Source: Candidatus Stahliibacteriota bacterium
Lineage (GTDB): Bacteria > Hydrothermota > Tepidihabitantia > SM23-42
Assembly: GCA_004376785.1 (NCBI GenBank)
Contig: SOIY01000229.1
Coordinates: 1 to 39,040 of the forward strand
Direction: 5' to 3'
DNA: 39,040 nt
The notes beneath the pieces were generated by a model that saw nothing but the letters and a program-made list of their open reading frames with translations, searched no databases and had not been told where the DNA came from. Shown piece after piece: positions 12,133-38,175 of this stretch (its first letter is position 1; each line of letters starts with the position of its first letter). The translations under genes were made by a program, and so were the position numbers.

Positions 12133-12202
12133 TTGTCAAGTCTCCTTTAGCATTTTTTTAAGTTTTATTTTTCTGGATGAATTTTAACATTCGACCATGA
12201 TG

Positions 12203-15290: not shown

Positions 15291-15310
15291 ATATTTTTCT
15301 CCTTTAAAAG

Positions 15311-16255: not shown

Positions 16256-16271
16256 TTTAATCTCCTTTATA

Positions 16272-17066: not shown

Positions 17067-17077
17067 TCACAACTCCT

Positions 17078-18676
17078 TTATATTAATGACATGGAGCCGA
17101 TACGATCTAACCATACCATCTCTCCATCGTTCTTTTTAGTATTAATGAATTCAGATACTCTATCATCAATTACCTGATCATTGTCTTTATTAAGTAATAA
17201 GATAACTGCTTTAAGCCATTCGTCTTCATTTTTACACTGATCCACTAATCTTAGATCAATTATTTCAGTTAGCTTAGCAATAAATACATCTTCTGTGGTC
17301 ATCACTACCTGTAAATCTTTTTCAATAGTTTCCCAAGTATCACCATCGCATCTTCTAATACCACATGGACGTTCTGCAAGTTTTTCTAATACTTCATATG
17401 CCGGCCCAGTTTTCATCAGAATATGCTTTATTTGGGAAATTAAATCGAAGGACTCTGAGATTAGCACATCATAGTGTTTTGATAGACCGCTTGTATCACT
17501 AAATCTATCGCCAGAATTATAATCTTTCATGTTGTTCATCAAATCTCTTTTTATTCCTTCCGCTTTTTCTATCCAATCCTGACCGCCTACTTCTACAACA
17601 CCATATCTGGATATTTCTATGGCTTTAATCATCATAGCGTAGTACAAACATGATACAGCTGCTATTGCGCTCGGTGATAGTAAACAATCCATCACTCTTA
17701 GCTCTACGTGAAACCGTTTTACATCACCTTTTTTGGTAAAAGTGCAGTTGTTGTAATTTACCCAACCGTATTTATTTCCGCCCGCATTCGACGAAACGTC
17801 TGCTTTTACCTTTGACATATTATTTAACACTGCAGATATGTTAAGTACTGATACTCTGTATTTTTCCCATCTAGTTATACGCTCCGGCTCATCCAAACCA
17901 ATGGTCATCCAAGTTATGGCATTTTGATATCTCCGGCATAGTTGATGAAAATTAGCCAGTATAATTTCTGGCATAGCTTTTTCCATCTCATCTATTTGAT
18001 TAGGTACACCAGGACTGCCGCTACTACCAGCAATTTTTCCATAATAGCTAGCCAATAAATGCGCATGGATGCTAGTTCTTTCGTTAACATATGCCCCGTT
18101 CTTAACTGCCAAATCTATAATTTCTTTTGACATTTTAAAGAACTCCCAGTAGTCAGGTCTCCTACCAACTGTTATTACTTCAGCTCCTTTCTTTCCGAGC
18201 AAACTTCCGTCAGTTGTAATACTATGGACACCGTGTTTGGTAAGTGAACCATAGCTATGTGAAGGAGTTAGAAAGTTATTCATTCTTTCTCTGATATGGT
18301 CTGGATTTCTTTCTGGATCGAAAAGATTTTCACAGGACTTACAATCTACTTCAAATTTCTCGCAAATTATACATTTGCTAAGAAATCCAGTACAAAATAT
18401 TCCATGACAGATAAAATTTTTCCCTCGTTCAGCTTTACATGTGTCAAATCTGATACAGTCTTTCCAGCAATTAGATTCAGCCATGTGTTTACATGGACAA
18501 GCGTTGTTGTTTCCTTTACAGGTACCATTCTTATTTGGCAAATTAAATTCATACTCCAAGCCAATCTTTAATATCTTATGAAGCATATGTTTCCAATATC
18601 TTACATCACCTGTATTTATTGCTTCCTTAGAGGGATGAACATAAAATGTCCATTTATCTCTGTTATCTCTACTCAT
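17078..18676 (-). CDS. Amidoligase_2-type (glutamine-synthetase-like) amidoligase with Cys-rich insert
   Basis: KIGLEYEFNL (metal-binding E-x-E strand), TTDGSLLGKKGAEVITVG, SIHAHLL and RFHVELRVMD follow the GS-like amidoligase motif order. About 18 Cys lie between residues ~47 and ~125. Confidence 0.7.
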   Translation of the reverse strand: MSRDNRDKWTFYVHPSKEAINTGDVRYWKHMLHKILKIGLEYEFNLPNKNGTCKGNNNACPCKHMAESNCWKDCIRFDTCKAERGKNFICHGIFCTGFLSKCIICEKFEVDCKSCENLFDPERNPDHIRERMNNFLTPSHSYGSLTKHGVHSITTDGSLLGKKGAEVITVGRRPDYWEFFKMSKEIIDLAVKNGAYVNERTSIHAHLLASYYGKIAGSSGSPGVPNQIDEMEKAMPEIILANFHQLCRRYQNAITWMTIGLDEPERITRWEKYRVSVLNISAVLNNMSKVKADVSSNAGGNKYGWVNYNNCTFTKKGDVKRFHVELRVMDCLLSPSAIAAVSCLYYAMMIKAIEISRYGVVEVGGQDWIEKAEGIKRDLMNNMKDYNSGDRFSDTSGLSKHYDVLISESFDLISQIKHILMKTGPAYEVLEKLAERPCGIRRCDGDTWETIEKDLQVVMTTEDVFIAKLTEIIDLRLVDQCKNEDEWLKAVILLLNKDNDQVIDDRVSEFINTKKNDGEMVWLDRIGSMSLI

Positions 18677-19830
18677 ATTAAAGCTCCCATCTGTTTGTCA
18701 GTTTTATACCAGTTTACTTCCATATCTGGAGAACATTGTATCCCCGACTCCACATATTTAAAATATTCATTTATAGAATCAGCCCTTTTCTTGTATCCTA
18801 CCATCTTTTCAATACCAGATCTTATATTATCGTAGTAAGTCATTGCCAAACTAGTATCTATACTACATATGATAGAGAATATTGTCATGGCTGATGGAAT
18901 GTCTGGATATAATTCTAGCATATCTTTATCCGTTGATACATAATCTAATTTAGTAAAATTATCTGTACAATGTTTAATACGACTTACTACATCCTCTATA
19001 ACAGTTGCCCCTATACTTATTATACCGTGTGTCAGTACTGGATGCTTCATCAGTGCTGCTCCAGGTACTCTATATTCAAGAGTTCTATTATCTAGTCTAT
19101 AATTGCCTGGTTTACCGTAGGCCAAATAAGGAGTAGTCCTTCTGTAATTATCGTCCTTCCCCTCTGGAAGTATAGAAGGAACTCCTATGTAATAATCTAG
19201 TATCTTTACTATTTGGTCTGCTATCTTAATCTTTTTATAACCTAGTAATTCATTTGGGAGGCCATAATGTAAATGAAAACCGGCAGTGATTTTCTTATAG
19301 GAAGATACTGCTGTTATCATTATGTCAGGGTCATTTATTTTTTGTCTAGCTTGTTTTAACATGTTGAAGATGTGAGATACAACTACATTTTCATCGGTGC
19401 TTGGTAATGGCCTAAATTCTAACAGTAAACCATCACACCCGACAGCGTCCCATTTCTTAAAGTATTTACCTGCAGTTACTATACCAGCATCTTTCTTATC
19501 TACTAGTATTAATTCCGGATCGCAGCCGAGCGTTATATTATCTACGAGTTTTACTTCACAAACATTAGAAGGACTATTAGTTAACAATTCAAATATTTCA
19601 TTAGTAACATATGCAGAGGATGAATTATCTTCTACATCCTCTTCATAGGCCTTCTCAATAGACAAAGAAACTATACTATCATCAGTGGCTCTCATGTTTA
19701 AAAAACCGCCCAGGCGTATGTCTAATGCTTTTCTAAGATCTTTTGGAATTCTGATTACTTTTCTCTCTGTTAATCTTTCTTCACGTATCTTATCCTCCAT
19801 TAATTTAGAAGGGTTAATTATTAATTTCAT
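18673..19830 (-). CDS. phiEco32-type COOH-NH2 ligase, copy 2
   Basis: LGCDPELILVDKK, GCDGLLLEFRPLPS, AGFHLHYG and LEYRVPGAALM. 4-nt overlap with the downstream amidoligase gene. Confidence 0.75.
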   Translation of the reverse strand: MKLIINPSKLMEDKIREERLTERKVIRIPKDLRKALDIRLGGFLNMRATDDSIVSLSIEKAYEEDVEDNSSSAYVTNEIFELLTNSPSNVCEVKLVDNITLGCDPELILVDKKDAGIVTAGKYFKKWDAVGCDGLLLEFRPLPSTDENVVVSHIFNMLKQARQKINDPDIMITAVSSYKKITAGFHLHYGLPNELLGYKKIKIADQIVKILDYYIGVPSILPEGKDDNYRRTTPYLAYGKPGNYRLDNRTLEYRVPGAALMKHPVLTHGIISIGATVIEDVVSRIKHCTDNFTKLDYVSTDKDMLELYPDIPSAMTIFSIICSIDTSLAMTYYDNIRSGIEKMVGYKKRADSINEYFKYVESGIQCSPDMEVNWYKTDKQMGALI

Positions 19831-19840
19831 TATTTTCCTT

Positions 19841-21247
19841 TCACTCTTCGTAAGGCTCTATTTCAAGTCCTAACCTATTATAGGCGTTCCATCTGCAATC
19901 ATTTTTTCCCCTCGTATAAAATTGATTTTGAAGAAGTCCTATGTCAACATCCACATAGTCATATACAATTGCATCTGTTTTTCCTTTAGCAGTTCTTTGT
20001 ATCCTACCAACCAACTGCTCGACTTTTCCTTCTGCTCTGAATGGCATTGTTATGAATGCTCTATTTAAGAACTTTACATCAAATCCTTCTCCTAGCAGAG
20101 AAAAAGTGCAAACTAACACTGTTATTTCCTTATTATCTAATTTTTCTGCCTGCTCTACCACATATTTTTTAGTGTAGTTACCTGTTGCAATGCCTGTTTT
20201 TTCCCAACCAAGTGATATCAAATCATATAATATTTCTGCATGTATCTTACGATCAGTCAGTACTATACAGTAATTACCTAACACTGCTTCACGAATAATG
20301 TCGCCGACTATTAAATTGTTTCTGCTTGCGTTATTTACAATGTTCTGTTTTAATATTTCCTGAATTTTATTTCCGTATACAGGTTTGGAGTGTATAGATC
20401 TGTATTTTACAAGTGGTAGCATTATACCCCCGTCACTTTCTACTTCACTAACTGATATATGTATGAGTTTTGGCCCAATCATTTGAAACATTAACGTCTC
20501 CAGCTTATCTCTTCGATAAGGAGTGGCTGTTAATGCATAGAGATAATAAGGGTTAAGATTACTAACAACTGTTATAAATGTGCTTGCTGGCACGTGATGA
20601 CACTCGTCAACAATAACGAGACCATAATCATCTCTCATCTCATGTAATTCTTTTAATCTTCTAACAAGTGTAGGTATTAAAGCTACTGTAACGATCTTTC
20701 CTGGTTTCCATTTACCATCGCCTATTAGCCCCACATCATCGTCCTTCAACCCAGGCAGAAATTGTTTTATACGAGCTAAAGCTTGGTTAGATAGAGCTCT
20801 GGTGTGAGTAAGCCATAACGTTGGCTGGCCTAATATTGGTATCATACTAATACCAATAACTGTTTTACCACTACCAGCTGGAGCAATAAAAAGACCTTCC
20901 TCTCCTTCCTTAAGGAACTTTATCATATTATCGAATTGATATGGTCTGTATTTAATATGTGATGAATCAATGTCTATGTAATCGAATATTGCACGTTCAT
21001 CTTTGATTTTAACATCTTTGCCGACTGCTTCCATGAGGAGAGATCTACATCCTCTTGGTATACATAGACTATCATCGGGTAGCATTTCAAAGTTATAAAT
21101 GAATGGATCTAAACCCCAAGCACTATATCCGTTGGCAATAGCGTTATAATACTTAGGATTTTTTACTTTGAGTTTTTCCACAAGATAATTTTTAAGCTTT
21201 TCCGGCGGATTCTTTATCGTTATTTTGTTTGATAATGTTATCTCCAT
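19841..21247 (-). CDS. SF2 DEAD/DEAH-box (ResIII/RAD25-like) helicase
   Basis: Walker A FIAPAGSGKT, Walker B VIVDECHHVPA, TATPYRRD (motif III), and C-terminal GEGFDV...LVGRIQR (motifs V/VI). Confidence 0.85.
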   Translation of the reverse strand: MEITLSNKITIKNPPEKLKNYLVEKLKVKNPKYYNAIANGYSAWGLDPFIYNFEMLPDDSLCIPRGCRSLLMEAVGKDVKIKDERAIFDYIDIDSSHIKYRPYQFDNMIKFLKEGEEGLFIAPAGSGKTVIGISMIPILGQPTLWLTHTRALSNQALARIKQFLPGLKDDDVGLIGDGKWKPGKIVTVALIPTLVRRLKELHEMRDDYGLVIVDECHHVPASTFITVVSNLNPYYLYALTATPYRRDKLETLMFQMIGPKLIHISVSEVESDGGIMLPLVKYRSIHSKPVYGNKIQEILKQNIVNNASRNNLIVGDIIREAVLGNYCIVLTDRKIHAEILYDLISLGWEKTGIATGNYTKKYVVEQAEKLDNKEITVLVCTFSLLGEGFDVKFLNRAFITMPFRAEGKVEQLVGRIQRTAKGKTDAIVYDYVDVDIGLLQNQFYTRGKNDCRWNAYNRLGLEIEPYEE

Positions 21248-22809: not shown

Positions 22810-23100
22810 TTACGGCTTAATTGCATCGATAGCTTCCAAACCATAAAGGTGGTATTCATCAAACCATTTATAAACACATGCTTGATATGTAATATCACCT
22901 TTTTTAAGTGTATACCAAACCTCTCCGCCAACAATAGGACATAAGCTATAGTGCTGATATCCAACTGCCTCAAAACCGTTGGACTTAAAAACTTTACTTG
23001 CATTAGCTTTAAGATTATCAACGTTTCTAGAACATCCACCAAAGCCTGAAAATAATATAATAGCCAGAATGAATACTATTATTAGGCATACAACCTTCAT
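22810..23100 (-). CDS. putative lipoprotein
   Basis: From the ATG at 23100: MKVVCLIIVFILAIILFSGFGG|CSRN has a signal peptide and lipobox. AGAGGAGGG upstream. The longest ORF (to 23136) would overlap the RNAP gene. Confidence 0.6.
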   Translation of the reverse strand: MKVVCLIIVFILAIILFSGFGGCSRNVDNLKANASKVFKSNGFEAVGYQHYSLCPIVGGEVWYTLKKGDITYQACVYKWFDEYHLYGLEAIDAIKP

Positions 23101-23113
23101 ATTTATCCCTCCT

Positions 23114-26100
23114 CTATACAAAACTGTTATTTCCACCGAGACATATCCCAGTGGTACGATTCTTAGATAATTCTTTTTGACCTTCTACCATTACATTGTG
23201 AGCATCATCGCTTATAGTATTAACAGTTAGCACCCTCTCAACGTAGTCCATAAGAGTTTTGCATGCGTCACGTTTATCTACGTCCTTAATAGTAGTTATT
23301 GTGTCATTATCCATAAAATCCTCAAGGACAGTCTTAGCATTATCTGATTTTCCACTCATAATAGTTTTAAGAATCTTACTTGGTGTATCTACCGCATCGG
23401 CGTCAAGATGATCGAGCAGTTGACATCCTTCTAAGTTAGCCCTGCTTGCAAAGTAAATCTTATTTTCTTTACGAACTATACGATTTATAACGTTGCTCCA
23501 GCCTTTCTCTTTAGCCTTTTGATGGTATGAATACAGATTATATATACCAACGTCTGCTGCTTTCTTCTTAATAATGTTGCATATTATAGCAGAGGTTTCG
23601 CTGGCGAATCCATGTTTGACCAGCATCTCAACATCACCGGTGCAGATTGCATCCATTACTATAGAATGCAGAGAAAGTACACCATGCTTCTGTTTAAACA
23701 CAGTATTACCTACCCGATCTAAAAATACTTCGATGGCAATGTTTACCTGTTGGTCATCTCTAACCTCAGAGTTTTCCAGTATACGCATTATATTATATGA
23801 TAACGCAATTACAGGACCGGTATGACTCTTAACACCTGTAGCTTTATCTACTAGGCCGGCGAGTGTATCAGCAGTAAGATCTCCGAACATTGTTATGTTA
23901 TAAGCGTGTAATCCAAAACAGTTAGTTTCAGGAACACCTGCTTTATTGTTTAACTGCTGAATAACCTCATAACACATCTTATTAGGTTCTTCCCACTCTT
24001 TTCGTAATAAAGCAACAGCTTCTTGTGTATGAAATGATGCCAGATAGATGACATCACCATCGAAATCTAAACCAAGAGAACATAAGTTGTTGCCACTGAC
24101 TCTGATGGTATATTTACATAAATCATCGTGTGTGACTCGTACCTTCTGAGGCCGGATAGACATAAAACCTAAGCATGGGAACCTTTCAACTAGCACTACA
24201 TCCCCATTGGTTACTCGCAAAGTTTTGGCCATATTCCTGTGTATCTCTATAGTATTTTCTGGCAGTCTGTTGGATAATGTAGCTACTGCTTTTGCAGAGA
24301 ATGGGTATCTTACTGACATTCCTAGTTGCGATATGTCACCACGTTTGGTGCCTAACATTTTAGATACCTTTGCGAAATAGGTATAGACTGAATTGTATAG
24401 CATCCGAATAGCTATAGCATTCTGAGGATCGGCCAAATATCTATGAGACATTACTAACATGTTATTAACTAGCACGCCTATCTCATTCAAGCCGAACTTA
24501 CCGTTGTCATGCTTCCAGCATTTTCTCATGCTAGATTTTGGTATATATATTTTATCAAACACACGAACTTTTTCAGATATTAATGTTCCTATTGTTATTG
24601 TTGCTGCGCCTTCGTGGATAACTTCACCATCATCATCAAGAGTCACCTGGTATGTTATAGGTAACTGCATGATAAATCCATCAGGCGCAAAGTAATCGTC
24701 CACAATAGTATTTTTGATATACTCTTCGTCCACTATAGTTCCAGCTGATTGATCCACATACTTCAGGTCTTTAGTTTGATACGTTGGAACATCTGGTGGC
24801 AACTCACCACGTTTTGATCTTAGAACTTTAAGATTTTCATGTATGTTGTCACTACCTTGAGCGTATGATAGGATCTCCGTTAGTAGAGCATTATCCTTTC
24901 CAAATCTAGTTTCTAATGCTCTCATTTCTACGTGTGATAGTTTTAAGCCAGCCCGTCTAAGTCCTTTAATATCTCTTCTGATAGTAGCATTCTCATCCCA
25001 TAGAGCGTTCTCTACACTTGCTATTACCCCCCAGAAAACTTCACCGCAGACACCTTCTAGCTTGCCCATGTATGTCTCACAAGACCATGTACCATCCCCT
25101 GGAAGATTATTCATTGTTAATATCTTACTCACATAAGACATATCTACTTGATAATCATCAGGTATTACTGTAGGTCCTTCCTTCGTGTTATTCAGAAGTG
25201 CTTCTAGTATCTGCCCGAAGTTCTTTCTTTTCTTTATTGATTTAGCAGATACAATTACATCAATCTTTCTTGTCTTGCCGGTCCTTGGATCGATAGCATA
25301 ACCAAGATCTTTCATCCTGATTACACCCTTATTGCCATGCAGATTAGTGATCTTTACGCCGTCTCTGAGATTACGTTTGTATTCTATTATTACATTGAAT
25401 ACTTCCGTAATTGTTCCACCTACGTTGGTCGCAGACTTAGTAATCTTTTTCACTTTTGCCTTATCACAATCAATATCAAATTTCTTAATGGTACCGGCGT
25501 TAGATGTAGATAGAATTTGTCCTTTTCTTATTAACTTTCCTTTGTGGACATGGAGTTTGTCGAAGCATTCGTATCTCTTCTCATATGTTATATACTTATT
25601 CCTATGTTGTAAGTCAACCATAATTTGGTCTTCAAAAACATCAGGAATATCGACAAACAAGGTAAATAGATTCCATCCTTTACGTGTAATACCTTGGTCC
25701 ATCAAATCCTGCATGGCCTGCGATCTAACTTTTGGTAATTCATCCCCCTTCATCCCTAACGTAGAATATAAATTTCGCTGGGGATTATGATAATGTATAC
25801 CGAATGGGGTTAGATGACGGATATCACGCATTAAGATATAATTCTTATTAGCTAAGCTACCATCAGCTAAACCGATTGAAGTCCATCCTCTATCAAAATA
25901 GGCTTTGTTCTTCTCAATCTGGTAAGATAAGCGTTCTTCTGGACTTTTAAGCTCATCAAATACAGGATCAACTATTACTAACCTTCTGTTCATTACCCAG
26001 CTATTAAGATAAGTCTCGTGCAGGGGCATCTTATTTATTATTTCATTAATTGCCCGTTGTAAATTGTATACAATTGTGGAAGTGTTGCCATTATTATATG

Positions 26101-26485
26101 AGTATACTAGTTGCTGTATATATGGAATTTTCTTGATCAACCCTCTAGGTATAATACCATCAGGATTATCACAAACTATTTTCTGCATAACAGCAAAGTA
26201 ACTTAAGATGAGGTCATCTTTACGAATAAAATGAGAACATACAGCTCTTCGCACTTCGTTCTGTTTGACTAAAAATACGCCATTGTCCTCATATGGTATA
26301 GGAACATTAAATGAATGCTGCTCATCATCTTTAGAAAGTATAAACCAAAGTGAATTATTAGCAATCTTTGTATCAAGTTTGATTCCGAAATCTATATTCT
26401 TTTTCTTCCCCTCAACATCAGTTCTGGCCACAAATTGTGCTATCACACTTGAACGCAGTAATTCAGTCTTTGACTCCAAATTCAT
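23114..26485 (-). CDS. single-polypeptide RNA polymerase with fused beta-like and beta-prime-like catalytic modules
   Basis: Beta-like: FEDQIMVD, NLHGNKGVI (aa 383-387, nt 25325-25339), KIDVIVSAKSIKKRKNFGQILEALL and GLKLSHVEMRALE (beta: [42 protein letters not shown]). Beta-prime-like: MSVRYPFSAKAV, VVLVERFPCLGFMSIRP, LGLDFDGDVIYL (aa 807-811, nt 24053-24067), ADTLAGLVDKATGVKSHTGPVIAL (bridge-helix-like). Confidence 0.8.
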   Translation of the reverse strand: MNLESKTELLRSSVIAQFVARTDVEGKKKNIDFGIKLDTKIANNSLWFILSKDDEQHSFNVPIPYEDNGVFLVKQNEVRRAVCSHFIRKDDLILSYFAVMQKIVCDNPDGIIPRGLIKKIPYIQQLVYSYNNGNTSTIVYNLQRAINEIINKMPLHETYLNSWVMNRRLVIVDPVFDELKSPEERLSYQIEKNKAYFDRGWTSIGLADGSLANKNYILMRDIRHLTPFGIHYHNPQRNLYSTLGMKGDELPKVRSQAMQDLMDQGITRKGWNLFTLFVDIPDVFEDQIMVDLQHRNKYITYEKRYECFDKLHVHKGKLIRKGQILSTSNAGTIKKFDIDCDKAKVKKITKSATNVGGTITEVFNVIIEYKRNLRDGVKITNLHGNKGVIRMKDLGYAIDPRTGKTRKIDVIVSAKSIKKRKNFGQILEALLNNTKEGPTVIPDDYQVDMSYVSKILTMNNLPGDGTWSCETYMGKLEGVCGEVFWGVIASVENALWDENATIRRDIKGLRRAGLKLSHVEMRALETRFGKDNALLTEILSYAQGSDNIHENLKVLRSKRGELPPDVPTYQTKDLKYVDQSAGTIVDEEYIKNTIVDDYFAPDGFIMQLPITYQVTLDDDGEVIHEGAATITIGTLISEKVRVFDKIYIPKSSMRKCWKHDNGKFGLNEIGVLVNNMLVMSHRYLADPQNAIAIRMLYNSVYTYFAKVSKMLGTKRGDISQLGMSVRYPFSAKAVATLSNRLPENTIEIHRNMAKTLRVTNGDVVLVERFPCLGFMSIRPQKVRVTHDDLCKYTIRVSGNNLCSLGLDFDGDVIYLASFHTQEAVALLRKEWEEPNKMCYEVIQQLNNKAGVPETNCFGLHAYNITMFGDLTADTLAGLVDKATGVKSHTGPVIALSYNIMRILENSEVRDDQQVNIAIEVFLDRVGNTVFKQKHGVLSLHSIVMDAICTGDVEMLVKHGFASETSAIICNIIKKKAADVGIYNLYSYHQKAKEKGWSNVINRIVRKENKIYFASRANLEGCQLLDHLDADAVDTPSKILKTIMSGKSDNAKTVLEDFMDNDTITTIKDVDKRDACKTLMDYVERVLTVNTISDDAHNVMVEGQKELSKNRTTGICLGGNNSFV

Positions 26486-26487: not shown

Positions 26488-27315
26488 TTAGGCTCCTTTG
26501 CTATGATTTAACTTGATTAATGCCATTGACATCTTATTCATGTTTGTTGCTATTATGCGTCGTGATTTATTAACTGCATATTTATTAACAATCGCCTCCT
26601 TTTGCATAGATTTTTCTTCATCAAAAAAGTTTTTGACATACATATTGAAAAACTCATCGTACCCAGCGTGTTTTATTTGTAATTTTAGTAACATTTGTTT
26701 AAAAGTAACTAGGTAATTAGCATAATTTCTTACAGAATATATTGTTGACGCAGTTCTTATTGCTAAAACAACATCTTGTAATTCAAGTTTGGAGTAATCT
26801 TTTAGTAATTGAAAGATAAACTTTTGTGAATACTTGAGTTGTTTTAAAATAATAGGTATTACTTTATTAAAATGATAGTGCTCTATATGACTTTGTACCC
26901 ACGCCCTATTTTTAATTCCTTCATTTTTTAATATATTACTAAAAGTATTCCTTGGTACAATAGTTCCGGCACAAACTACGCCACTATCTTCAGATAGTTT
27001 CTTGAAAAAAGAAGAGTTCTTTTTGAAGTTTCTTCTAAGACTTTCTATATTTTTTTCAGCATTTTGTTTAGAATTACATGTTTCAATTGGTATAACATTT
27101 AGAACAACTCTTCTCTCCCTTCTAAGCTTGTTCTCATTACCATATTTGATAAATATTATGGATATAGGTGTAACTATTAGTCCTTCTTCATAATTGATAG
27201 CCAGGAATCTTGTTGGTCCTATTCCAGAAATATAACCAATACTTCCACACCTAGGACTAAGCTTTTTGTTTGCGGTACTCATTACTATAGAAACTTGTGT
27301 ACCAATAGGAAACAT
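26488..27315 (-). CDS. hypothetical protein, tandem paralog A1 (immediately upstream of the RNAP gene)
   Basis: 275 aa. N-terminus IGTQVSIV...GSIGYISGIG...LIVTPISIIFIK parallels TGTKFTIS...GSVGFISSLGG...VVSMNTVLIRK in 27328..28110. Confidence 0.6.
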   Translation of the reverse strand: MFPIGTQVSIVMSTANKKLSPRCGSIGYISGIGPTRFLAINYEEGLIVTPISIIFIKYGNENKLRRERRVVLNVIPIETCNSKQNAEKNIESLRRNFKKNSSFFKKLSEDSGVVCAGTIVPRNTFSNILKNEGIKNRAWVQSHIEHYHFNKVIPIILKQLKYSQKFIFQLLKDYSKLELQDVVLAIRTASTIYSVRNYANYLVTFKQMLLKLQIKHAGYDEFFNMYVKNFFDEEKSMQKEAIVNKYAVNKSRRIIATNMNKMSMALIKLNHSKGA

Positions 27316-27327: not shown

Positions 27328-28110
27328 TTACTTGGTTTTGGCTTTATGTAATTTATTTATTTCTTTTTCTGTAACTTTGTAATACTTTATGGTTCTTTCT
27401 ATTAAACCATTATCATCAGTAAATTTGTATTCGTTTTTTGCCCCTTTCTTTTCCAGAAATTTACCTTTATTTGTAAACTCCAAAAATTCTGAAGCATTTA
27501 ATTCACATTTTGCTTTTGATTCATCCATGTCCAAATGTATTTTGACCATGGATGAATACATAACGCGTGCTTCGTCTATAAATGACTCCCTGACCTCCAG
27601 ATTTTCATAAAAATTTAGATGACCACCTGGGTCTTCTCTGAAATAATCTGGTAATCTAAGTATTTTATTAACAGGATTTTTATTACTTGACGGCCACTTA
27701 TTGTGCTTACATCTAGATGCCATTAGCCTTAGTCTATGAGACATAGCTACGGACCATCCCAGGAAATCTAAGGAAGTTACTTCCATTAAATTATTGTGCT
27801 GATTTTCTTCCTTATCTATATAAACAAAGCTTTTTCTGTTCTCAATTGTTGGTAGTATCTTTGCAAAATTTTCTGAGTCAAATGTAAAAACAGGCATTTT
27901 AAGTCTGCAAATCTCTATCCTGTCTTTACCTGTTTTACCCTTTCTTATTAGTACTGTGTTCATACTCACCACGTTTTGATAGCTATCATCCAGTCCACCT
28001 AGAGATGATATAAATCCAACGCTGCCTGGAATATGAGAGGGGTTTTTAATTTTGTCTGAAATTGTAAATTTAGTACCGGTATCTAGTATACCGCTTTGTA
28101 AAAGTTCCAT
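27328..28110 (-). CDS. hypothetical protein, tandem paralog A2
   Basis: 260 aa. Its N-terminal domain resembles that of 26488..27315. Confidence 0.6.
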   Translation of the reverse strand: MELLQSGILDTGTKFTISDKIKNPSHIPGSVGFISSLGGLDDSYQNVVSMNTVLIRKGKTGKDRIEICRLKMPVFTFDSENFAKILPTIENRKSFVYIDKEENQHNNLMEVTSLDFLGWSVAMSHRLRLMASRCKHNKWPSSNKNPVNKILRLPDYFREDPGGHLNFYENLEVRESFIDEARVMYSSMVKIHLDMDESKAKCELNASEFLEFTNKGKFLEKKGAKNEYKFTDDNGLIERTIKYYKVTEKEINKLHKAKTK

Positions 28111-28472: not shown

Positions 28473-28982
28473 TTAATCTTCTCCTAATTTATCTAATTTT
28501 TCTGCAATATCAGCTATACTTTTGCACGTTTCTATTGTGTCATCTGTCTCAATGTCATCCTCGTCAACCGACATCACTATACTTAATTCATAACCATATA
28601 GTATAAACATTTGATCAATATCATAAAGAAAGTTTGCTGATTCGTTACCTTTCAACAGAGACCTTACCTCATAGGCTAATTCTTTGTAGTCATCGTCTGA
28701 CTCAGAATCAAGTATAACTCCATGTGAATGATTCTCTTGATCCATAACTACTATAAATGCCTGTTGATTCCTAAGATCTCTTGGTATTGATTTGGCTGAC
28801 GTTAATACTCCATGTATTACTCTTAAGTCTGAACAAATACTTATATTTTTAGTCCTTAGATGACTAAGAAGCTGTTCATACGAGGAACACACAACCAACT
28901 CACCAGATGGAGTGACAGCAGTATCAACCCCTACTATGTACACTTCCTCATAGAGCATATTAAATAATGCTGATTTATCCAT
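28473..28982 (-). CDS. acidic hypothetical protein (169 aa)
   Basis: D/E-rich (DSESDDDYKE, VDEDDIETDDTIE). 8-nt overlap with the upstream gene. Confidence 0.55.
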   Translation of the reverse strand: MDKSALFNMLYEEVYIVGVDTAVTPSGELVVCSSYEQLLSHLRTKNISICSDLRVIHGVLTSAKSIPRDLRNQQAFIVVMDQENHSHGVILDSESDDDYKELAYEVRSLLKGNESANFLYDIDQMFILYGYELSIVMSVDEDDIETDDTIETCKSIADIAEKLDKLGED

Positions 28983-29688
28983 TTATTTCCTTAATGTTTA
29001 TGCTATCTGCAGAAACATATTTGGTTTTGAACTCTTTCATGTTCATTTTAAGAAAATTATTCAGTAATGTTTTGTAATAAATGTAAGCTTTGGCACTACT
29101 AACCATAAATTCAGGGTGCCATTGCACCCCAAACACTTTATACCATGGTATAAGAATAGCTTCTACTTCTGGCCCATGCCAATTTATTTCTTCATCTTTA
29201 TTACCTATGTATTTGCTAGATTGCTTTTCAAGACTCCAAGCTAGGATGTGTCCATCTGCTGGAGGTATACACATTTGATGATGAAGACTGTTAGTCATAA
29301 ATGAGTCAAACGTTTTACAAGAAGTATTTACTATATGCTGATTTGATACATGCCCATCCATATGGTGTATTAATTTACCGCCACACATCACATTTAGAAA
29401 TTGCATGCCCCGACAGATACCAGCCATAGGTATATTAGATTTCATAGCTACATTAAATATCTTTTTGTCCAACTCATCGCGTTTTTTACTCACCGTGCAA
29501 TAATTTTTTGGACTAGTATCACCGTAGAGTTCAGGTGATACATCTTCTCCGCCAGTAAATTGTACCAGTTTAAAATCTTTAGGATTTAACACAAAAGCAG
29601 TATAGTCGAGAGTTACTTCACCGAAATCTCTCAGCATAGGTGCATATGAGTTATTATCTGGGTTAAGAACTAGTATCCTATCTTTCAT
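28975..29688 (-). CDS. class-I glutamine amidotransferase-like / peptidase C26 (gamma-glutamyl hydrolase, PuuD-like), copy 1
   Basis: Nucleophile elbow PMAGICRGMQFLNV and GVQWHPEF (His-Glu of the triad). Confidence 0.85.
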   Translation of the reverse strand: MKDRILVLNPDNNSYAPMLRDFGEVTLDYTAFVLNPKDFKLVQFTGGEDVSPELYGDTSPKNYCTVSKKRDELDKKIFNVAMKSNIPMAGICRGMQFLNVMCGGKLIHHMDGHVSNQHIVNTSCKTFDSFMTNSLHHQMCIPPADGHILAWSLEKQSSKYIGNKDEEINWHGPEVEAILIPWYKVFGVQWHPEFMVSSAKAYIYYKTLLNNFLKMNMKEFKTKYVSADSINIKEING

Positions 29689-29691
29689 ACA

Positions 29692-29991
29692 TTATTCCTC
29701 TAAATCAGGTGTTTTGATTTCTTGTGGTTTTGCAAGCTCGTAAGCAATATCTACGACATCAGCAACCTTAATGAACCGTTGCACAGGTGACTCGTCAAAG
29801 CTTATACAAAATACAGGTTCTGTCATTCTCTTACCAGCAAGAGAGCCAGTCTCTCTATAATCTATTTTTGATACAGCGGGACTATCCTCTACTACTGTAC
29901 CATCTTCAAGCGTTGGTTGTTGATCAACAGTAAACTTAACTGGTAAACTTAAGTTATAACCTTTTCTCCAAATTTCTATAATTCCTGCCAT
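29692..29991 (-). CDS. hypothetical protein (99 aa)
   Basis: ORF with a GAGGAG SD, preceded by a 166-nt structured leader. Confidence 0.55.
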   Translation of the reverse strand: MAGIIEIWRKGYNLSLPVKFTVDQQPTLEDGTVVEDSPAVSKIDYRETGSLAGKRMTEPVFCISFDESPVQRFIKVADVVDIAYELAKPQEIKTPDLEE

Positions 29992-30157
29992 TTTTAATCT
30001 CCTCTTTTTTTATTTTACAGGACCGCACAGAACGGTCACAGAGAAACCCTCGAATCTTATGTTTCACTATTACTTTGCTACGCAAAGTCATATGTATGGA
30101 TTTTTGGTAAAAATCCAACACTATATTTATTGGACGATAGACAAAACTAATCAACGT

Positions 30158-30565
30158 TCACATGCCTGGTTCCCACAATCCATCATCGATTTTCATAGAA
30201 GTCTTAGGCTCTCGCGAATATTCATAGACATACACTTCCATCTTTTCACCATCTTTTGTTTTTGCCGTGACCACCCTACGGTTATACAAATTGTTTTTTT
30301 CTTCACTTTTTGGGTTATAACCTTCAATCATATCCATAGTACGGATTATTTCTTTTATGTCATCCTTGTGAAATTTATGAACTTCACCTTGGACGAGCCC
30401 TTTACCTTTCAGCTTTATTGTAGGATAAGGTCCTAAATTATACAGCGATCCAACAATCGTAGCAGGTGTTACAGATAGACGAGTATCAGCAAATACTTTT
30501 CTATCCAAGGGTCTTCCTTCTTTAAGCGTTCCATACACAAACACATTTAATACTTTCTTACTCAT
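30158..30565 (-). CDS. gamma-glutamylcyclotransferase (GGCT/AIG2-like)
   Basis: VFVYGTLKEGRP (YGTL-x-x-G signature), GPYPTIKL..GLVQGEV and MDMIEGY (catalytic Glu context). Confidence 0.85.
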   Translation of the reverse strand: MSKKVLNVFVYGTLKEGRPLDRKVFADTRLSVTPATIVGSLYNLGPYPTIKLKGKGLVQGEVHKFHKDDIKEIIRTMDMIEGYNPKSEEKNNLYNRRVVTAKTKDGEKMEVYVYEYSREPKTSMKIDDGLWEPGM

Positions 30566-31961
30566 TAGAACCTCCTTTTTTAACTACAATTTTTTTCTCT
30601 GTTACTTCTTCATCTAGACTCCATCTAGCCTGATCATATATTTTTACATCACTAATTACTCCTTTTATTTCTTTCCCCGGTTTAATTGATTCATTAGGTG
30701 GTGCAGCGTCCATCTTGAGTCTAATTCCACGAAATCTGTCAGAAGACAAACTTTTGATTGATAAATCTTGTCCTGAATTGCCTATATCAATTATAGGTGG
30801 AGAATCTTGGCCAAGAGTATGACGATTAACAAGAACAGCACTTTCATTAAGTGGATTTATAGTAGACTCAGCAGGTGTAGTTACAGCAAAACTAGACGCT
30901 TTCTCATAATCATCATGGTGTCTGAATTTCTTTTTCTTTTTAACAGAGGATCTTAATTTAAGTTTAAATACAATTTTCTCACACAGAGCTGCCGCAGAAC
31001 GGCTGCCGAGATACCTACCTTTTATTTTTCTGGCTCTATCTTCAGTGTAGACCATAGGGTCAGCACTTATTTTTTTGAGATAGATACCAAAGTCTTTTCT
31101 AGCCGTCGAAATAATCAGGCTATGTAACTCATCAGGTGTTAGTTTCTTAAGCATTGATGGAAAAAATCTGAGATTTACATTACCATCCTGACCAAGCATT
31201 ATTTTAGTATATATCTTACTACTTTGTTGTTTTACTTTATTACTTTTCCTTTGTTTCAGGTAATTTTGATTGGCCTGGTCTATTGATATGCCTAAACTCC
31301 ATCCTCGCTTTGTGTATTTTCTAAATCTTTCAGTAAGTTTTGAGTGGTAGTTAGCAACACGTATTATTCTATTTTTACAATCATCTAACGCTGATTTGAT
31401 AACTTCAAATATCTTGCCATGTCTATCGATAGCAACACCACAAAATATAAAATCAACTGCACGTACTATACTTAATGCATCACTCAATGGGTCATCTGTT
31501 TTTTCCATAGCCTGTATGATTTGAACATGTTTGTTGCCGACAGTTTCAAATGCTACTACGTCAGAAACGTTTCTGTAAGATTTTTTAGATTTATCCAGAG
31601 AAGATTTTTTAAATTGGGGTGGGGGAACGTGGTAACCAACCGCGCGAGGAGGATGCCACTTGCCTCTATTAGGCGATTTTGATCTAAATTCTTTACGGCT
31701 AAAATCAGTCTCACTTATTGTATTTCCTGCAATCTGTTTCCATTTTGAGGAGTTGGCAAATCTTTTGCACAGCTTCATAAATTCGAAATGTGATACTGCT
31801 ATATCCAAATCACCATTAGCAGGTAATCCTGAGATAATAGAAGTTATAGAGCTACCATATACTACTGCGTTATCAGTTAACATGGTGCTTATATTATCAA
31901 ATCGTTCATCAATAATTTCAACGATAAACGGTTGCTCTATTGTTTTAAGATATTGTTCCAT
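30558..31961 (-). CDS. pol-beta-superfamily nucleotidyltransferase-like protein
   Basis: VVYGSSITSIISGLPANGDLDIAVS fits the hG[GS]-x(9-13)-D-h-D/E-h minimal NTase motif. The rest is unrecognised, with a basic K-rich central part. 8-nt overlap with the GGCT gene. Confidence 0.5.
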   Translation of the reverse strand: MEQYLKTIEQPFIVEIIDERFDNISTMLTDNAVVYGSSITSIISGLPANGDLDIAVSHFEFMKLCKRFANSSKWKQIAGNTISETDFSRKEFRSKSPNRGKWHPPRAVGYHVPPPQFKKSSLDKSKKSYRNVSDVVAFETVGNKHVQIIQAMEKTDDPLSDALSIVRAVDFIFCGVAIDRHGKIFEVIKSALDDCKNRIIRVANYHSKLTERFRKYTKRGWSLGISIDQANQNYLKQRKSNKVKQQSSKIYTKIMLGQDGNVNLRFFPSMLKKLTPDELHSLIISTARKDFGIYLKKISADPMVYTEDRARKIKGRYLGSRSAAALCEKIVFKLKLRSSVKKKKKFRHHDDYEKASSFAVTTPAESTINPLNESAVLVNRHTLGQDSPPIIDIGNSGQDLSIKSLSSDRFRGIRLKMDAAPPNESIKPGKEIKGVISDVKIYDQARWSLDEEVTEKKIVVKKGGSNE

Positions 31962-32208
31962 TACCCTTCCTTGTATCAGTTACTGATAATCCCATAAGTG
32001 TATACCCCTGAGCTTTATAGACTTCCTCGAATGTAATGAATCCATACTCAAGTACCCAAGTACTTATGGGTGAAATTCCATTATCTATTATCTTTTCCCT
32101 TAACCTTTTTACTATATCCCTAGCTTCTGTTAAGTTGAAACTTTTATAGATAAGACATTCTGCGTCGTCATCACACAGTCTGAATTCTATCGTCCATCTT
32201 TTTGTCAT
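31945..32208 (-). CDS. hypothetical protein
   Basis: Start placed at the ATG at 32208 (MTKRWTIEF...), which forms TAATG with the stop of 32208..32957. The longest ORF (to 32268) would overlap that gene by 61 nt. Confidence 0.5.
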   Translation of the reverse strand: MTKRWTIEFRLCDDDAECLIYKSFNLTEARDIVKRLREKIIDNGISPISTWVLEYGFITFEEVYKAQGYTLMGLSVTDTRKGNGTIS

Positions 32209-32957: not shown

Positions 32958-32958
32958 T

Positions 32959-35767: not shown

Positions 35768-35837
35768 CTTAATTACCTTATTATTTTACTAAGTAAAATC
35801 ATATAGGTATGATATTTTTTTTCAAAAAGTATCAACC

Positions 35838-38098: not shown

Positions 38099-38175
38099 TT
38101 ATAATTTGCCTTTCAATATTTTTTTTCTTTCCAGAAAATATGTTTCAACCATGATACTTTGTTGAACAAAGCCTC

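What the first reader, a model, noticed from the sequence alone, without database searches (positions are those of the whole stretch)
23114..26485. 1123-aa single polypeptide fusing RNAP beta and beta-prime catalytic cores
Seen in sequence: the N-terminal half carries consecutive hallmark beta motifs (FED..I, HGNKG, FGQILE, ..EMRALE). The C-terminal half carries beta-prime motifs (R.P.L...S, invariant DFDGD, an ADT...bridge-helix-like segment). The total is about 40% of the combined length of bacterial beta plus beta-prime. Established knowledge: single-chain enzymes with two double-psi beta-barrels are known (SPbeta prophage YonO, crAss-like phage virion RNAPs, QDE-1-type RdRPs), but they retain very little motif-level identity. 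phiKZ/AR9-type phage RNAPs are split into subunits, not fused. Inference: the motif conservation here looks clearly closer to cellular beta/beta-prime. This may therefore be an intermediate, minimal fused RNAP lacking clamp, flap and probably trigger-loop elements, which would be informative for RNAP evolution and for its promoter-recognition mechanism.
Basis: partly seen in the sequence, partly recalled or inferred. Interest (0 to 1): 0.8.

Follow-up and report, generated by a model that had tools for sequence, protein, structure and literature searches.

The report
Single-chain mini RNA polymerase of uncultured jumbo phages
This gene encodes one 1123-residue protein that joins cut-down versions of the two catalytic subunits of cellular RNA polymerase, and it belongs to a widespread family from uncultured giant phages that I found described in no paper searched.

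Summary
Window 23114-26485 (minus strand) is an intact 1123-aa ORF. Its N-terminal half carries a beta/Rpb2-type catalytic barrel and its C-terminal half a beta'/Rpb1-type barrel. Both pass Pfam's curated cut-offs and both are backed by Foldseek. All eight residues universal to two-barrel RNA polymerases are conserved in 46-47 of 47 homologues.

The protein belongs to a metagenome-only family: at least 445 clusters at 90% identity, about 27 full-length clusters at 50%. Members sit on phage contigs of up to 330 kb, always in the same gene neighbourhood. No isolated phage carries it. All homologues are named "hypothetical", and I found no paper describing the family.

Most likely it is an active, DNA-dependent, phage-encoded transcriptase, probably non-virion. 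How it finds promoters is unknown.

The lid, clamp coiled-coil and switch 2 are retained, and a small beta-sandwich sits where the flap would be. The bridge helix and trigger loop are only candidates.

Fusion itself is not unique: yeast killer-plasmid ORF6, NCgl1702 and other metagenomic fused forms exist. Distant relatives with separate beta'-like and beta-like genes also exist. I rate it a new variant (a new family) of a known kind, of moderate to high interest.

The parts
23114..26485 (-). Complete gene for the 1123-aa single-chain two-barrel RNA polymerase (stop codon included)
   Evidence: ORF listing. Full-length homologues at 50-90% identity. AF2 model with pLDDT 85.8 and pTM 0.81.
25886..26485 (-). 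N-terminal region, aa 1-200 (long helix, beta-sheet, helical bundle). It is family-specific, with no detectable counterpart
   Evidence: DSSP of the model. No Pfam or PDB sequence match to this part.
25733..25792 (-). YHNPQRNLYSTLGMKGDELP (aa 232-251), which I assign to the beta/Rpb2 hybrid-binding motif (E. coli beta 672-693, [20 protein letters not shown])
   Evidence: N234, P235, R237, N238 and L239 are invariant in 47/47. The E. coli motif position comes. The correspondence is by eye (inference).
25613..25684 (-). First part of the beta-type double-psi barrel, aa 268-291 (GWN..F..FEDQIMVD). E285/D286 correspond to E. coli beta E813/D814
   Evidence: E285 is conserved 47/47 and D286 46/47. 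E. coli FEDS lies at 812.
25370..25612 (-). 81-aa all-beta insert in the beta barrel, aa 292-372, at the position of the cellular flap (SBHM) domain. It has no flap-tip helix
   Evidence: DSSP shows strands only. The family profile aligns positions 323-375 to the end of the E. coli flap, 1012-1060. Four members give weak Biotin_lipoyl_2 hits.
25184..25369 (-). Second part of the beta-type barrel, aa 373-434, with K378 and K386 (E. coli beta K1065 and K1073), HGNKG and FGQILE
   Evidence: Pfam Rpb2_6. phmmer and hmmsearch hits to bacterial beta chains, E about 1e-5. K378 and K386 are conserved 47/47.
24896..24958 (-). RRAGLKLSHVEMRALETRFGK (aa 510-530), the counterpart of the beta '[14 protein letters not shown]' anchor motif
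   Evidence: R510, G513, L514, K515, S517 and E520 are invariant. The E. coli motif lies at 1271. The correspondence is by eye.
24551..24805 (-). Connector between the two halves, aa 561-645, mostly beta strands
   Evidence: DSSP. The split relatives break at this boundary.
24482..24550 (-). Lid-type motif IYIPKSSMRKCWKHDNGKFGLNE (aa 646-668), matching E. coli beta' 242-266 (LPVLPPDLRPLVPLDGGRF..). It is followed by two helices (668-685 and 690-711) that align with the clamp coiled-coil
   Evidence: Colinear hhalign alignment of aa 646-823 with beta' 242-473 (weak statistics, E 0.34). P649, W657, H659 and G665 are invariant.
24272..24352 (-). Switch-2 region GTKRGDISQLGMSVRYPFSAKAVATLS (aa 712-738), matching beta' [24 protein letters not shown] and Rpb1 324-375
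   Evidence: HMMER alignment to Rpb1 and to E. coli beta' 325-373. K714, G716, R726 and P728 are invariant.
24011..24247 (-). Beta'-type double-psi barrel, aa 747-825, with R768-F-P770 (beta' R425/P427) and the Mg-binding D807-F-D809-G-D811 (window 24053-24067)
   Evidence: Pfam Rpb1_2 above its cut-off. 43/43 members match it. All five residues are conserved 47/47. In the Foldseek search with the C-terminal half, all top 50 hits are largest subunits.
23774..23872 (-). Candidate bridge helix, aa 872-904 (invariant T883 G884 V885 K886, T889 G890 P891, A894 L895, Y897 N898, M900 R901, E904)
   Evidence: A 33-residue helix in both models. Invariance. There is no significant alignment to bacterial beta', so this is inference only.
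23639..23752 (-). Candidate trigger-loop hairpin, aa 912-949 (invariant F930, Q932, K933, H934, G935)
   Evidence: Helix-loop-helix in the model. Invariance. An F..KH motif is also present in the split beta'-like relative. Inference only.
23117..23638 (-). C-terminal helical domain, aa 950-1123. The last 35 or so residues have low confidence and are variable
   Evidence: DSSP and pLDDT. Consensus of the alignment.
26488..27315 (-). 275-aa gene that ends 2 nt before the polymerase start. It is a possible accessory or specificity factor (not shown)
   Evidence: Found at this position in 12 of 16 related loci. It has a conserved ~80-aa N-terminal domain and a fast-evolving tail. No Pfam, PHROG or PDB match.
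19841..21247 (-). SF2 (DEAD/ResIII) helicase that accompanies the polymerase gene in every locus examined
   Evidence: 16 of 16 loci, 2-9 listed ORFs downstream of the polymerase gene. PHROG 16, E 3e-56. Pfam ResIII, DEAD and Helicase_C in relatives. A functional link is not shown.

Best explanation
The gene encodes a catalytically active, DNA-dependent, single-polypeptide RNA polymerase of the two-barrel (cellular-type) superfamily. An uncultured jumbo phage of bacteria makes it to transcribe its own genome.

The N-terminal ~560 aa supply the beta-type barrel. This part carries the two lysines (K378, K386) and the E285/D286 acidic pair, which position the NTP and the RNA 3' end. The C-terminal ~480 aa supply the beta'-type barrel with the D807/D809/D811 triad that holds the catalytic Mg2+. 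They also supply R768/P770, switch 2, the lid and the clamp coiled-coil, which handle the template strand and the DNA-RNA hybrid. A long helix and a helical hairpin that follow probably act as bridge helix and trigger loop.

I could not find counterparts of the beta regions that bind rifampicin, the alpha-dimer platform or the sigma-4-binding flap tip. The enzyme should therefore work without host subunits and be insensitive to rifampicin.

The gene is free-standing and sits in a block of replication and nucleic-acid-metabolism genes, not inside a virion protein. The enzyme is therefore most likely made after infection (non-virion) and transcribes middle or late genes.

Shown: the fold, the motifs, their conservation, and the distribution confined to phage-type contigs. 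Inferred: activity, DNA template, timing, drug insensitivity, and whether a separate specificity factor is needed.
For: - Both catalytic Pfam domains score above their curated cut-offs, and 42-43 of 43 members match each at E <= 1.
- The AF2 model has pLDDT 85.8 and pTM 0.81.
- Foldseek with the whole model: the top 50 PDB hits are all second-largest RNAP subunits (bacterial beta, archaeal Rpo2, eukaryotic Rpb2-type, ASFV), E 6e-13 to 2e-10.
- Foldseek with the C-terminal half: the top 50 are all beta', Rpb1, Rpo1N or AR9 beta', E 3e-8 to 1e-6.
- All eight residues invariant in two-barrel polymerases (PMC2919709) are conserved in 46-47 of 47 sequences that are only 50-90% identical overall. 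They remain conserved in members at 38-40% identity.
- Switch 2, proposed as a hallmark of DNA-templated enzymes (PMC2919709), aligns with Rpb1 and beta'.
- Phage context: PHROG-type clamp loader, helicase, RNA ligase, tRNA nucleotidyltransferase and transglycosylase genes, all on one strand.
- The neighbourhood is conserved over 16 loci on contigs of 45-330 kb.
- In 185,579 species genomes the gene occurs only on 5 MAG contigs with mutually inconsistent taxonomy.
- Precedent: free-standing single-chain YonO and P23-45 gp64 are active non-virion RNA polymerases (PMC5467207, PMC10770324).
Against: - There is no biochemical evidence and no cultured host.
- Similarity to cellular enzymes is confined to about 110 + 80 residues at sequence level. 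E-values against PDB sequences are modest: 1e-5 for beta and 0.005-0.04 for the largest subunit.
- The asparagine of NADFDGD, which contacts the NTP ribose in cellular enzymes, is not conserved here: position 805 is G, S or N and position 806 is L. Sugar selectivity is therefore untested.
- The bridge-helix and trigger-loop assignments have no alignment support.
- No promoter motif could be identified.
- Only 39 kb of a probably >200 kb genome is visible. A second (virion) polymerase or a sigma-like factor elsewhere cannot be excluded, and the gene's time of expression is unknown.
Confidence: 0.75

Rival explanations
1. It is the catalytic core of a small multi-protein polymerase. On its own it elongates but cannot find promoters. 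One or more conserved small neighbours act as a sigma-like specificity subunit, in the way phiKZ gp68 or AR9 gp226 do. The leading candidate is the 275-aa protein immediately upstream (gene ends 2 nt before the polymerase start); the 260-aa protein before it is a second candidate.
For: The upstream 275-aa gene is separated by 2 nt and is present in 12/16 loci. It has a conserved N-terminal domain and a fast-evolving remainder, as expected for a specificity factor. The 275-aa and 260-aa proteins share a ~65-aa N-terminal domain. The clamp coiled-coil, which is the sigma docking site in bacteria, appears to be retained. phiKZ and AR9 non-virion enzymes need such a fifth subunit (PMC13282480).
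Against: These neighbours match no family or solved structure. The most divergent subclade (L093-L096) has different genes at these positions by BLAST. The whole region is syntenic across the clade, so adjacency alone says little. P23-45 gp64 and gp96 and YonO work as monomers (PMC10770324, PMC5467207).
Confidence: 0.35
2. It is a virion-packaged polymerase that is injected with the DNA to transcribe the earliest genes, like the phiKZ virion RNAP, N4 vRNAP, crAss gp66 or P23-45 gp96.
For: The best full-length structural match among viral proteins is a 'minor tail protein' of an uncultured siphovirus (TM 0.50 over 1247 columns). The family profile weakly detects the beta barrel near the N-terminus of giant 4560-5013-aa proteins (E about 1e-9). 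There is a weak hit to P23-45 gp96 (E 0.03-0.05).
Against: The protein is free-standing at 1040-1200 aa in the full-length members, with no fusion to tail or internal-virion domains. The gene lies among replication and nucleotide-metabolism genes, not structural ones. The known single-chain virion polymerases are parts of giant proteins.
Confidence: 0.12
3. It is not a transcriptase. It would instead be a two-barrel polymerase used for replication priming, or an RNA-templated polymerase (QDE-1-like) or a DNA polymerase (PolD-like).
For: The gene lies in a replication-type block, a few genes from an SF2 helicase in 16/16 loci, with a clamp-loader gene about 13 kb further along in the window. 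The ribose-sensing asparagine of NADFDGD is not conserved. No primase was identified in the window.
Against: Switch 2 and the lid, typical of DNA-dependent transcriptases, are present. No QDE-1 or PolD chain appears among the PDB sequence matches or the listed top-50 fold matches. All listed structural matches are transcriptases.
Confidence: 0.06
4. It is a decayed, inactive remnant of captured host rpoB-rpoC genes.
For: It is much shorter than beta plus beta', and most cellular domains are undetectable.
Against: The frame is intact. The catalytic residues are conserved in 46-47 of 47 sequences, alongside about 160 fully invariant positions, across sequences down to 38% identity. The family has hundreds of members with conserved length. 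The AF2 model is confident.
Confidence: 0.02

Closest known systems
Yeast cytoplasmic linear ('killer') plasmid RNA polymerase, K2ORF6p of pGKL2 (with small subunit K2ORF7p)
   Same: One chain of about 1000 aa with the beta part first and the beta' part second. It has cellular-type motifs and much of the beta' clamp and other cellular regions are missing. It works in a system that also encodes an SF2 helicase (PMC6211774, PMC2919709).
   Different: K2ORF6p keeps almost all conserved beta regions and little of beta', and its beta' C-terminus is a separate 132-aa protein. Here beta is reduced to about 560 aa and the beta'-like part is about 480 aa in the same chain. The host is eukaryotic there and bacterial here. 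Its origin is proposed to be near poxviruses.
P23-45 gp64 (non-virion) and gp96 (tail-tape-fused virion) single-chain two-barrel RNAPs
   Same: They are phage-encoded single polypeptides with both barrels and DFDGD, and they are active as monomers. gp64 is free-standing and crab-claw shaped (PMC10770324). The profile gives a weak hit to gp96 chains 8H2N/8H2M (E 0.03-0.08).
   Different: Similarity is marginal and limited to the beta' barrel. gp64 (8F72) is absent from the PDB sequence matches and from the listed top 50 fold matches. gp96 is part of a 5002-aa tape measure protein. The sequence similarity of the P23-45 enzymes to known RNAPs is reported as extremely low or undetectable (PMC10770324), whereas this family matches the cellular Pfam models.
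YonO (SPbeta) and related QDE-1/RdRP-like single-chain enzymes; crAss-like phage gp66
   Same: Single-chain two-barrel polymerases of phages. YonO is non-virion and active alone (PMC5467207).
   Different: The YonO/RdRP type lacks the SBHM insert in the beta barrel (PMC7824862). crAss gp66 has no recognisable similarity to the cellular COG0085/COG0086 models, and YonO is highly divergent (PMC7481178). This family has an all-beta insert at that position and passes the Pfam cut-offs. No QDE-1 or gp66 chain is among the matches.
phiKZ / AR9 multisubunit jumbo-phage RNAPs
   Same: Jumbo-phage enzymes related to beta and beta' that have no alpha, omega or sigma homologues. PHROG families of their subunits match both barrels (E 3e-7 and 5e-7). 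The AR9 beta' N-terminal subunit is the second-best structural match of the C-terminal half.
   Different: Those enzymes are split into 4-5 polypeptides that together cover full-length beta and beta', plus a specificity subunit (PMC7598289). This one is a single chain about 40% of that size. No isolated phage has a homologue.
mReC phage RNAP (Weinheimer and Aylward 2020)
   Same: Metagenome-derived tailed phages, some above 200 kb, that encode cellular-type RNAP subunits.
   Different: mReC phages have separate beta and beta' genes of at least 800 aa each with NADxDGD (PMC7481178). This family is fused, about half that size, and has LDFDGD.

Membership tests
Two-barrel (double-psi beta-barrel) RNA polymerase superfamily | The eight universally invariant active-site residues: three Asp plus Arg and Pro in the beta'-type barrel; Asp and two Lys in the beta-type barrel (PMC2919709) | tested here: met
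   D807, D809, D811, R768, P770, K378 and K386 are conserved 47/47 and D286 46/47. Equivalence to E. coli beta K1065/K1073/D814 and beta' R425/P427/D460-464 comes.
Two-barrel (double-psi beta-barrel) RNA polymerase superfamily | Two double-psi barrels forming one active site | tested here: met
   Pfam Rpb2_6 and Rpb1_2. Foldseek: the whole model hits Rpb2/beta chains and the C-terminal half hits Rpb1/beta' chains.
Canonical beta / Rpb2 subunit | The full set of conserved beta domains (protrusion, lobe, fork, external, hybrid-binding, wall/flap, anchor/clamp) | tested here: not met
   Only Rpb2_6 is detected in 43 members; there is no Rpb2_1-5 or Rpb2_7. The beta-like part is about 560 aa against 1342 aa in E. 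coli.
Canonical beta' / Rpb1 subunit | Rpb1 domains 1-5, including the N-terminal zinc/zipper clamp part, funnel, bridge helix and trigger loop; the NADFDGD motif | tested here: not met
   Only Rpb1_2 is detected. The N of NADFDGD is replaced: 805 is G/S/N and 806 is L. There is no alignment of aa 826-1060 to beta' 470-1407. The lid, coiled-coil and switch 2 are retained.
YonO / QDE-1 (RdRP-like) single-chain polymerases | No SBHM insert in the beta-type barrel; no similarity to cellular beta or beta' beyond the catalytic residues | tested here: not met
   There is an 81-aa all-beta insert at aa 292-372 whose end aligns with the end of the E. coli flap. The Pfam cut-offs are passed. No QDE-1 chain is among the PDB matches. 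The YonO sequence itself was not compared.
Killer-plasmid K2ORF6p-type beta::beta' fusion | A single chain with beta regions followed by beta' regions | tested here: met
   The order of the Pfam domains and motifs.
Killer-plasmid K2ORF6p-type beta::beta' fusion | Sequence homology to K2ORF6p beyond the universal motifs; a separate K2ORF7p-like small subunit | not testable with these tools
   The K2ORF6p and K2ORF7p sequences (P05472, P05473) could not be fetched. No eukaryotic plasmid collection was available.
phiKZ/AR9-type jumbo-phage multisubunit RNAP | Beta and beta' each split into two or more polypeptides that together span the full-length subunits | tested here: not met
   A single 1123-aa chain. 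Similarity is at barrel level only.
Virion polymerases fused into giant proteins (crAss gp66, P23-45 gp96) | The polymerase module is embedded in a multi-thousand-residue virion or tail protein | tested here: not met
   The full-length family clusters are 950-1244 aa and free-standing. Packaging into virions was not testable.

The most novel reading that the evidence does not exclude
This family and its two-gene relatives (a beta'-like protein of about 520 aa plus a beta-like protein of about 545 aa) may form a distinct, previously unrecognised lineage of minimal RNA polymerases of about 1070 aa in total. On the beta side they keep cellular-type features: the HN..RN hybrid-binding motif, an SBHM-type insert and the GEME-type anchor. 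On the beta' side they keep the lid, clamp coiled-coil and switch 2. They dispense with alpha, omega and most peripheral domains. If the enzyme is promoter-specific on its own, it would be among the smallest known enzymes built on the cellular RNAP plan. It would be a tractable model for what that plan minimally needs, and a new branch for reconstructing how two-barrel polymerases were fused, split and reduced.
Probability: 0.35. Interest if true: 0.75.

Novelty: new variant of a known kind. Interest (0 to 1): 0.62.

Why it matters
Cellular RNA polymerases are 400-kDa assemblies. How much of that is needed for accurate, processive, promoter-dependent transcription is an old question. So far it has been approached through a few very divergent phage enzymes (YonO, crAss gp66, P23-45 gp64 and gp96).

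This family offers a 127-kDa single chain that still aligns with the cellular active-site region. That includes switch 2, the lid and the clamp coiled-coil, so results should transfer more directly to cellular enzymes. The family is abundant in metagenomes, is conserved in a whole clade of uncultured jumbo phages and is annotated everywhere as hypothetical. Recognising it changes how the transcription strategy of these phages is read: recent reviews state that jumbo phages outside a small subset (mainly Chimalliviridae) lack their own RNAP.

Fused and split relatives exist with opposite gene order. This gives material for working out how such enzymes evolve. A compact, probably rifampicin-insensitive, orthogonal polymerase could also be useful in biotechnology.

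Tried and rejected
- tblastn of the protein against 50,697 phage records found nothing at E 1e-3. At E 10 it found only barrel-sized fragments in phiKZ-like subunits and contaminating bacterial rpoB.
- hhalign of the family alignment against single E. coli RpoB and RpoC sequences recovered only the beta barrel.
- hhalign against a 29-sequence beta' alignment gave a meaningless greedy alignment when run full-length. With the C-terminal half it gave a colinear but statistically weak alignment. For the bridge-helix/trigger-loop region it gave nothing.
- I rejected mReC membership after reading the paper: those phages have separate subunits of at least 800 aa.
- Reviews of jumbo-phage RNAPs and of huge phages do not mention this family.
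- The upstream 275-aa protein has no Pfam, PHROG or PDB-profile match.
- Promoter hunting led nowhere. AATCTATAAT-like sites are at chance level. An A7T run is enriched in intergenic gaps (6 observed against about 1 expected), but some copies are simply spacers between the ribosome-binding site and the start codon.
- There are no tRNA genes and no Rfam matches in the window.
- The giant protein P0252 has no PDB sequence match, so it is not a close gp96 homologue.
The accepted 10-sequence alignment gave only pLDDT 67, so its fold matches support family assignment only, not fine detail.
- I could not test whether the same phage encodes a second polymerase, because only 10 kb or less around a match can be read from related contigs.

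Full report
**1. The observation.** Window 23114-26485 on the minus strand is one uninterrupted ORF of 1123 codons with an ATG start. It begins 2 nt after the stop of the preceding gene. The window has about 36% G+C, so roughly 7% of random codons are stops. An open frame this long has a chance probability of about 1e-35 (my calculation). The protein is 41% of the combined length of E. coli beta (1342 aa) and beta' (1407 aa).

**2.
- Pfam detects RNA_pol_Rpb2_6 at aa 324-434 (29.5 bits, cut-off 23.4) and RNA_pol_Rpb1_2 at aa 747-825 (26.1 bits, cut-off 25.3).
- PHROG families of phage 'RNA polymerase beta subunit' match the same two stretches.
- Against PDB sequences, the protein and a family profile match the barrel of bacterial beta (E about 1e-5). 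They match archaeal Rpo1N, AR9 beta', P23-45 gp96 and Rpb1 weakly at the second barrel.
- A profile of the C-terminal half alone matches Rpb1 at E 0.005. That match has two colinear pieces, switch 2 (Rpb1 324-375) and the barrel (435-508).
- An AlphaFold2 model built on 47 homologues is confident (pLDDT 85.8, pTM 0.81). Its 50 best Foldseek matches in the PDB are all second-largest RNAP subunits of bacteria, archaea, eukaryotes and ASFV (E 6e-13 to 2e-10).
- A separate, weaker model of aa 560-1123 (pLDDT 67) matches only largest subunits and the AR9 beta' N-terminal subunit (E 3e-8 to 1e-6).

**3. Conservation.**
- The large protein database holds at least 445 relatives at E <= 0.001. The best 120 are nearly all full-length (1096-1244 aa, apart from one 666-aa fragment), 50-90% identical to the window protein, and unnamed or named 'hypothetical protein'.
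- In a 47-sequence alignment, about 160 positions are invariant.
- The eight residues universal to two-barrel polymerases (PMC2919709) are all conserved. D807, D809, D811, R768 and P770 are 47/47. K378 and K386 are 47/47 and correspond to E. coli beta K1065 and K1073. D286 is 46/47, next to invariant E285.
- These residues stay invariant in IMG/VR members that are only 38-40% identical.

This is the pattern of an active enzyme, not a relic.

**4. Anatomy.**

*Beta-like part (aa 1 to about 560).* After a family-specific N-terminal 200 aa come:
- YHNPQRNLYSTLGMKG, which I assign to the Rpb2/beta hybrid-binding motif (E. coli [17 protein letters not shown]).
- GWN..F..FEDQI, the start of the barrel.
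- An 81-aa all-beta insert at the position where cellular beta carries the flap. It has no flap-tip helix. Its end aligns with the end of the E. coli flap, and four members give weak Biotin_lipoyl_2 hits.
- The HGNKG and FGQILE part of the barrel.
- GLKLSHVEMRALE, the counterpart of [14 protein letters not shown].

*Connector.* A mostly beta-stranded connector (aa 561-645) follows.

*Beta'-like part.* It starts at a lid-type motif. IYIPKSSMRKCWKHDNGKF aligns with LPVLPPDLRPLVPLDGGRF. Two helices aligning with the clamp coiled-coil follow, then switch 2 and the barrel. The whole of aa 646-823 is colinear with E. coli beta' 242-473 (the statistics are weak, but searches agree).

*After the barrel.* Next come a 33-residue helix (872-904) and a helical hairpin (912-949). 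Both are packed with invariant residues, including K933-H934. By position and by precedent they are candidate bridge helix and trigger loop; both elements are conserved in all single-chain enzymes solved so far (PMC10770324). However, hhalign against bacterial beta' gave no support, so this remains inference.

*What is absent.* No other RNAP Pfam domain is detected in any of 43 members. The beta' N-terminal ~240 aa is missing. So are the regions of beta that form the rifampicin pocket, the lobes and the alpha-binding surfaces. The N of NADFDGD is not conserved.

**5. What carries it.**
- All genes in the window point the same way and are tightly packed.
- Recognisable neighbours are an SF2 helicase, a clamp loader, a T4-type RNA ligase, a tRNA nucleotidyltransferase and a transglycosylase. 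There is also a striking set of COOH-NH2 ligases and glutamine amidotransferases.
- Family members lie on contigs of up to 325-330 kb. The neighbourhood is conserved in 16 loci. The helicase accompanies the polymerase in 16/16 loci, a COOH-NH2 ligase in 14/16 and the 275-aa upstream gene in 12/16.
- No isolated phage has a relative of the polymerase or a close relative of the helicase.
- Among 185,579 species genomes, only five MAG contigs carry it. They are labelled Muribaculaceae, Woesearchaeota, Arcobacteraceae, Patescibacteria and Altiarchaeales, which is the signature of mis-binned phage DNA.

The element is therefore an uncultured jumbo-phage lineage of bacteria.

**6. The wider family.** A search of 1.84 billion representative proteins with the family profile returned only 254 proteins at E <= 0.001, of which about 27 are full-length clusters. 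At database scale the family is thus far from cellular RpoB and RpoC, which were not retrieved in bulk. The tail of the list is informative.
- *Split relatives.* There are stand-alone beta-like proteins of about 500-630 aa. One of them, P0231 (544 aa, Rpb2_6 E 3e-14), sits on an 18-kb contig. It is overlapped upstream by a 522-aa gene that carries switch 2 and NADSDGD. That gene is homologous to the C-terminal half of the window protein (hhalign probability 92%, E 6e-7). Two-gene versions therefore exist, with the order beta' then beta, the reverse of the fusion.
- *Other fused chains.* P0259 is 1018 aa with Rpb2_3, Rpb2_6 and Rpb1_2. P0247 is 1561 aa with seven RNAP domains. P0239 is 2278 aa.
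- *Giant proteins.* Proteins of 4560-5013 aa have a beta-type barrel near the N-terminus.
- *Structural matches.* Among predicted viral structures, the best full-length matches are a 'minor tail protein' of an uncultured siphovirus (TM 0.50) and a 798-aa uncharacterised protein of Acinetobacter phage ME3.

**7. Literature.** Known single-chain or fused two-barrel enzymes are:
- YonO (PMC5467207);
- crAss gp66;
- P23-45 gp64 and gp96 (PMC10770324);
- NCgl1702 and the killer-plasmid K2ORF6p (PMC2919709).

The authors of PMC6211774 called the K2ORF6p beta::beta' fusion unique. The mReC phages have separate subunits of at least 800 aa each (PMC7481178). Reviews of jumbo-phage transcription (PMC7598289, PMC7824862, PMC13282480) and the huge-phage survey (PMC7162821) do not describe this family. 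[quoted passage not shown] I found no paper describing this family in five full-text searches. The search covers open-access papers and preprints only.

**8. Mechanism and verdict.** The best-supported reading is an active, DNA-dependent, single-chain transcriptase made by the phage. It is probably non-virion, because the gene is free-standing and lies in a replication-type block. It is probably independent of host subunits and insensitive to rifampicin, but these last points are inferences.

How it recognises promoters is open. I found no over-represented promoter-like motif. The conserved, fast-evolving 275-aa protein whose gene ends 2 nt upstream is a candidate factor, but nothing identifies it.

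The claims that clamp, flap and trigger loop are lacking, and that fusions with cellular-like motifs are unknown, need correction. I classify the finding as a new family, that is, a new variant of the known class of reduced or fused two-barrel RNA polymerases of mobile elements. Interest is moderate to high.

Noticed in passing
L098:4476-7635 (also L099, L100): Distant relatives on 18-23 kb metagenomic contigs encode the two halves as separate, overlapping genes in the order beta'-like (522 aa, NADSDGD) then beta-like (544 aa, P0231). This is the reverse of the order in the fused protein. A 223-aa gene upstream has a faint RNA_pol_A_CTD hit.
   Followed up: partly
Proteins P0259, P0247, P0239, P0248, P0252: Other uncharacterised single-chain beta::beta' proteins exist in metagenomes. 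P0259 is 1018 aa with bacterial-type EHDD and ETPxG-like motifs and no flap. P0247 is 1561 aa with seven RNAP Pfam domains. Proteins of about 2000-2300 aa may be NCgl1702-like. Giant proteins of 4560-5013 aa have a beta-type barrel near the N-terminus and may be virion polymerases.
   Followed up: partly
window 26488-27315 and 27328-28110 (minus strand): The two genes just upstream of the polymerase share a ~65-aa N-terminal domain (consensus GTK..V..S....GPR.GS.GY...F.R.G; pairwise E 0.006). The rest of each protein evolves fast. They match no known family. They are possible transcription accessory factors.
   Followed up: partly
window 19841-21247 (minus strand): An SF2 DEAD/ResIII helicase lies a few genes downstream of the polymerase in all 16 related loci, followed by a COOH-NH2 ligase in 14 of them. 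This parallels the helicases associated with killer-plasmid, poxvirus and phiKZ-type polymerases, but it may only reflect clade-wide synteny.
   Followed up: partly
window 11020-19830 and 28975-33867 (minus strand): There is an unusual concentration of amidoligase-type genes: at least four COOH-NH2 ligase or ATP-grasp genes, class-II glutamine amidotransferases and peptidase-C26 GATases. A highly conserved 532-aa unknown (17078-18676) lies among them. The set is syntenic in related phages and suggests a peptide- or metabolite-modification pathway.
   Followed up: no
window 5036-5803: A 768-bp stretch has no ORF of 45 aa or more in the gene orientation. It has no tRNA (ARAGORN) and no Rfam match, although it contains a T-arm-like GTTCGAATC. 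It may be a non-coding RNA or a decayed region.
   Followed up: partly
BFVD entry A0A172Q0S6 (Acinetobacter phage vB_AbaM_ME3, 798 aa): An uncharacterised protein of an isolated 234-kb jumbo phage is the second-best structural match over its full length (TM 0.48 on its length, 12% identity). It may be an unrecognised single-chain two-barrel polymerase in a cultivable phage.
   Followed up: no
Vibrio phages D181/D148/D69 (OZ196140.1 at about 147330-147521): A 'hypothetical protein' in these 187-kb phages matches aa 365-428 (the HGNKG..GQILE barrel) at 42% identity (E 0.01). It may be an unannotated beta-like polymerase subunit.
   Followed up: no
window 22810-23136 (minus strand): A 108-aa ORF overlaps the polymerase 3' end by 23 nt and has a lipoprotein-like signal peptide (..LFSGFGGC). 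It has no counterpart in the related loci.
   Followed up: no
window intergenic gaps, e.g. 35768-35837, 38099-38212, 4140-4263, 12133-12202: The run AAAAAAAT on the gene strand occurs in 6 of 14 intergenic gaps, against about 1 expected from its window-wide frequency. Some copies are spacers between the ribosome-binding site and the start codon, so this is only a weak lead for a promoter element.
   Followed up: partly
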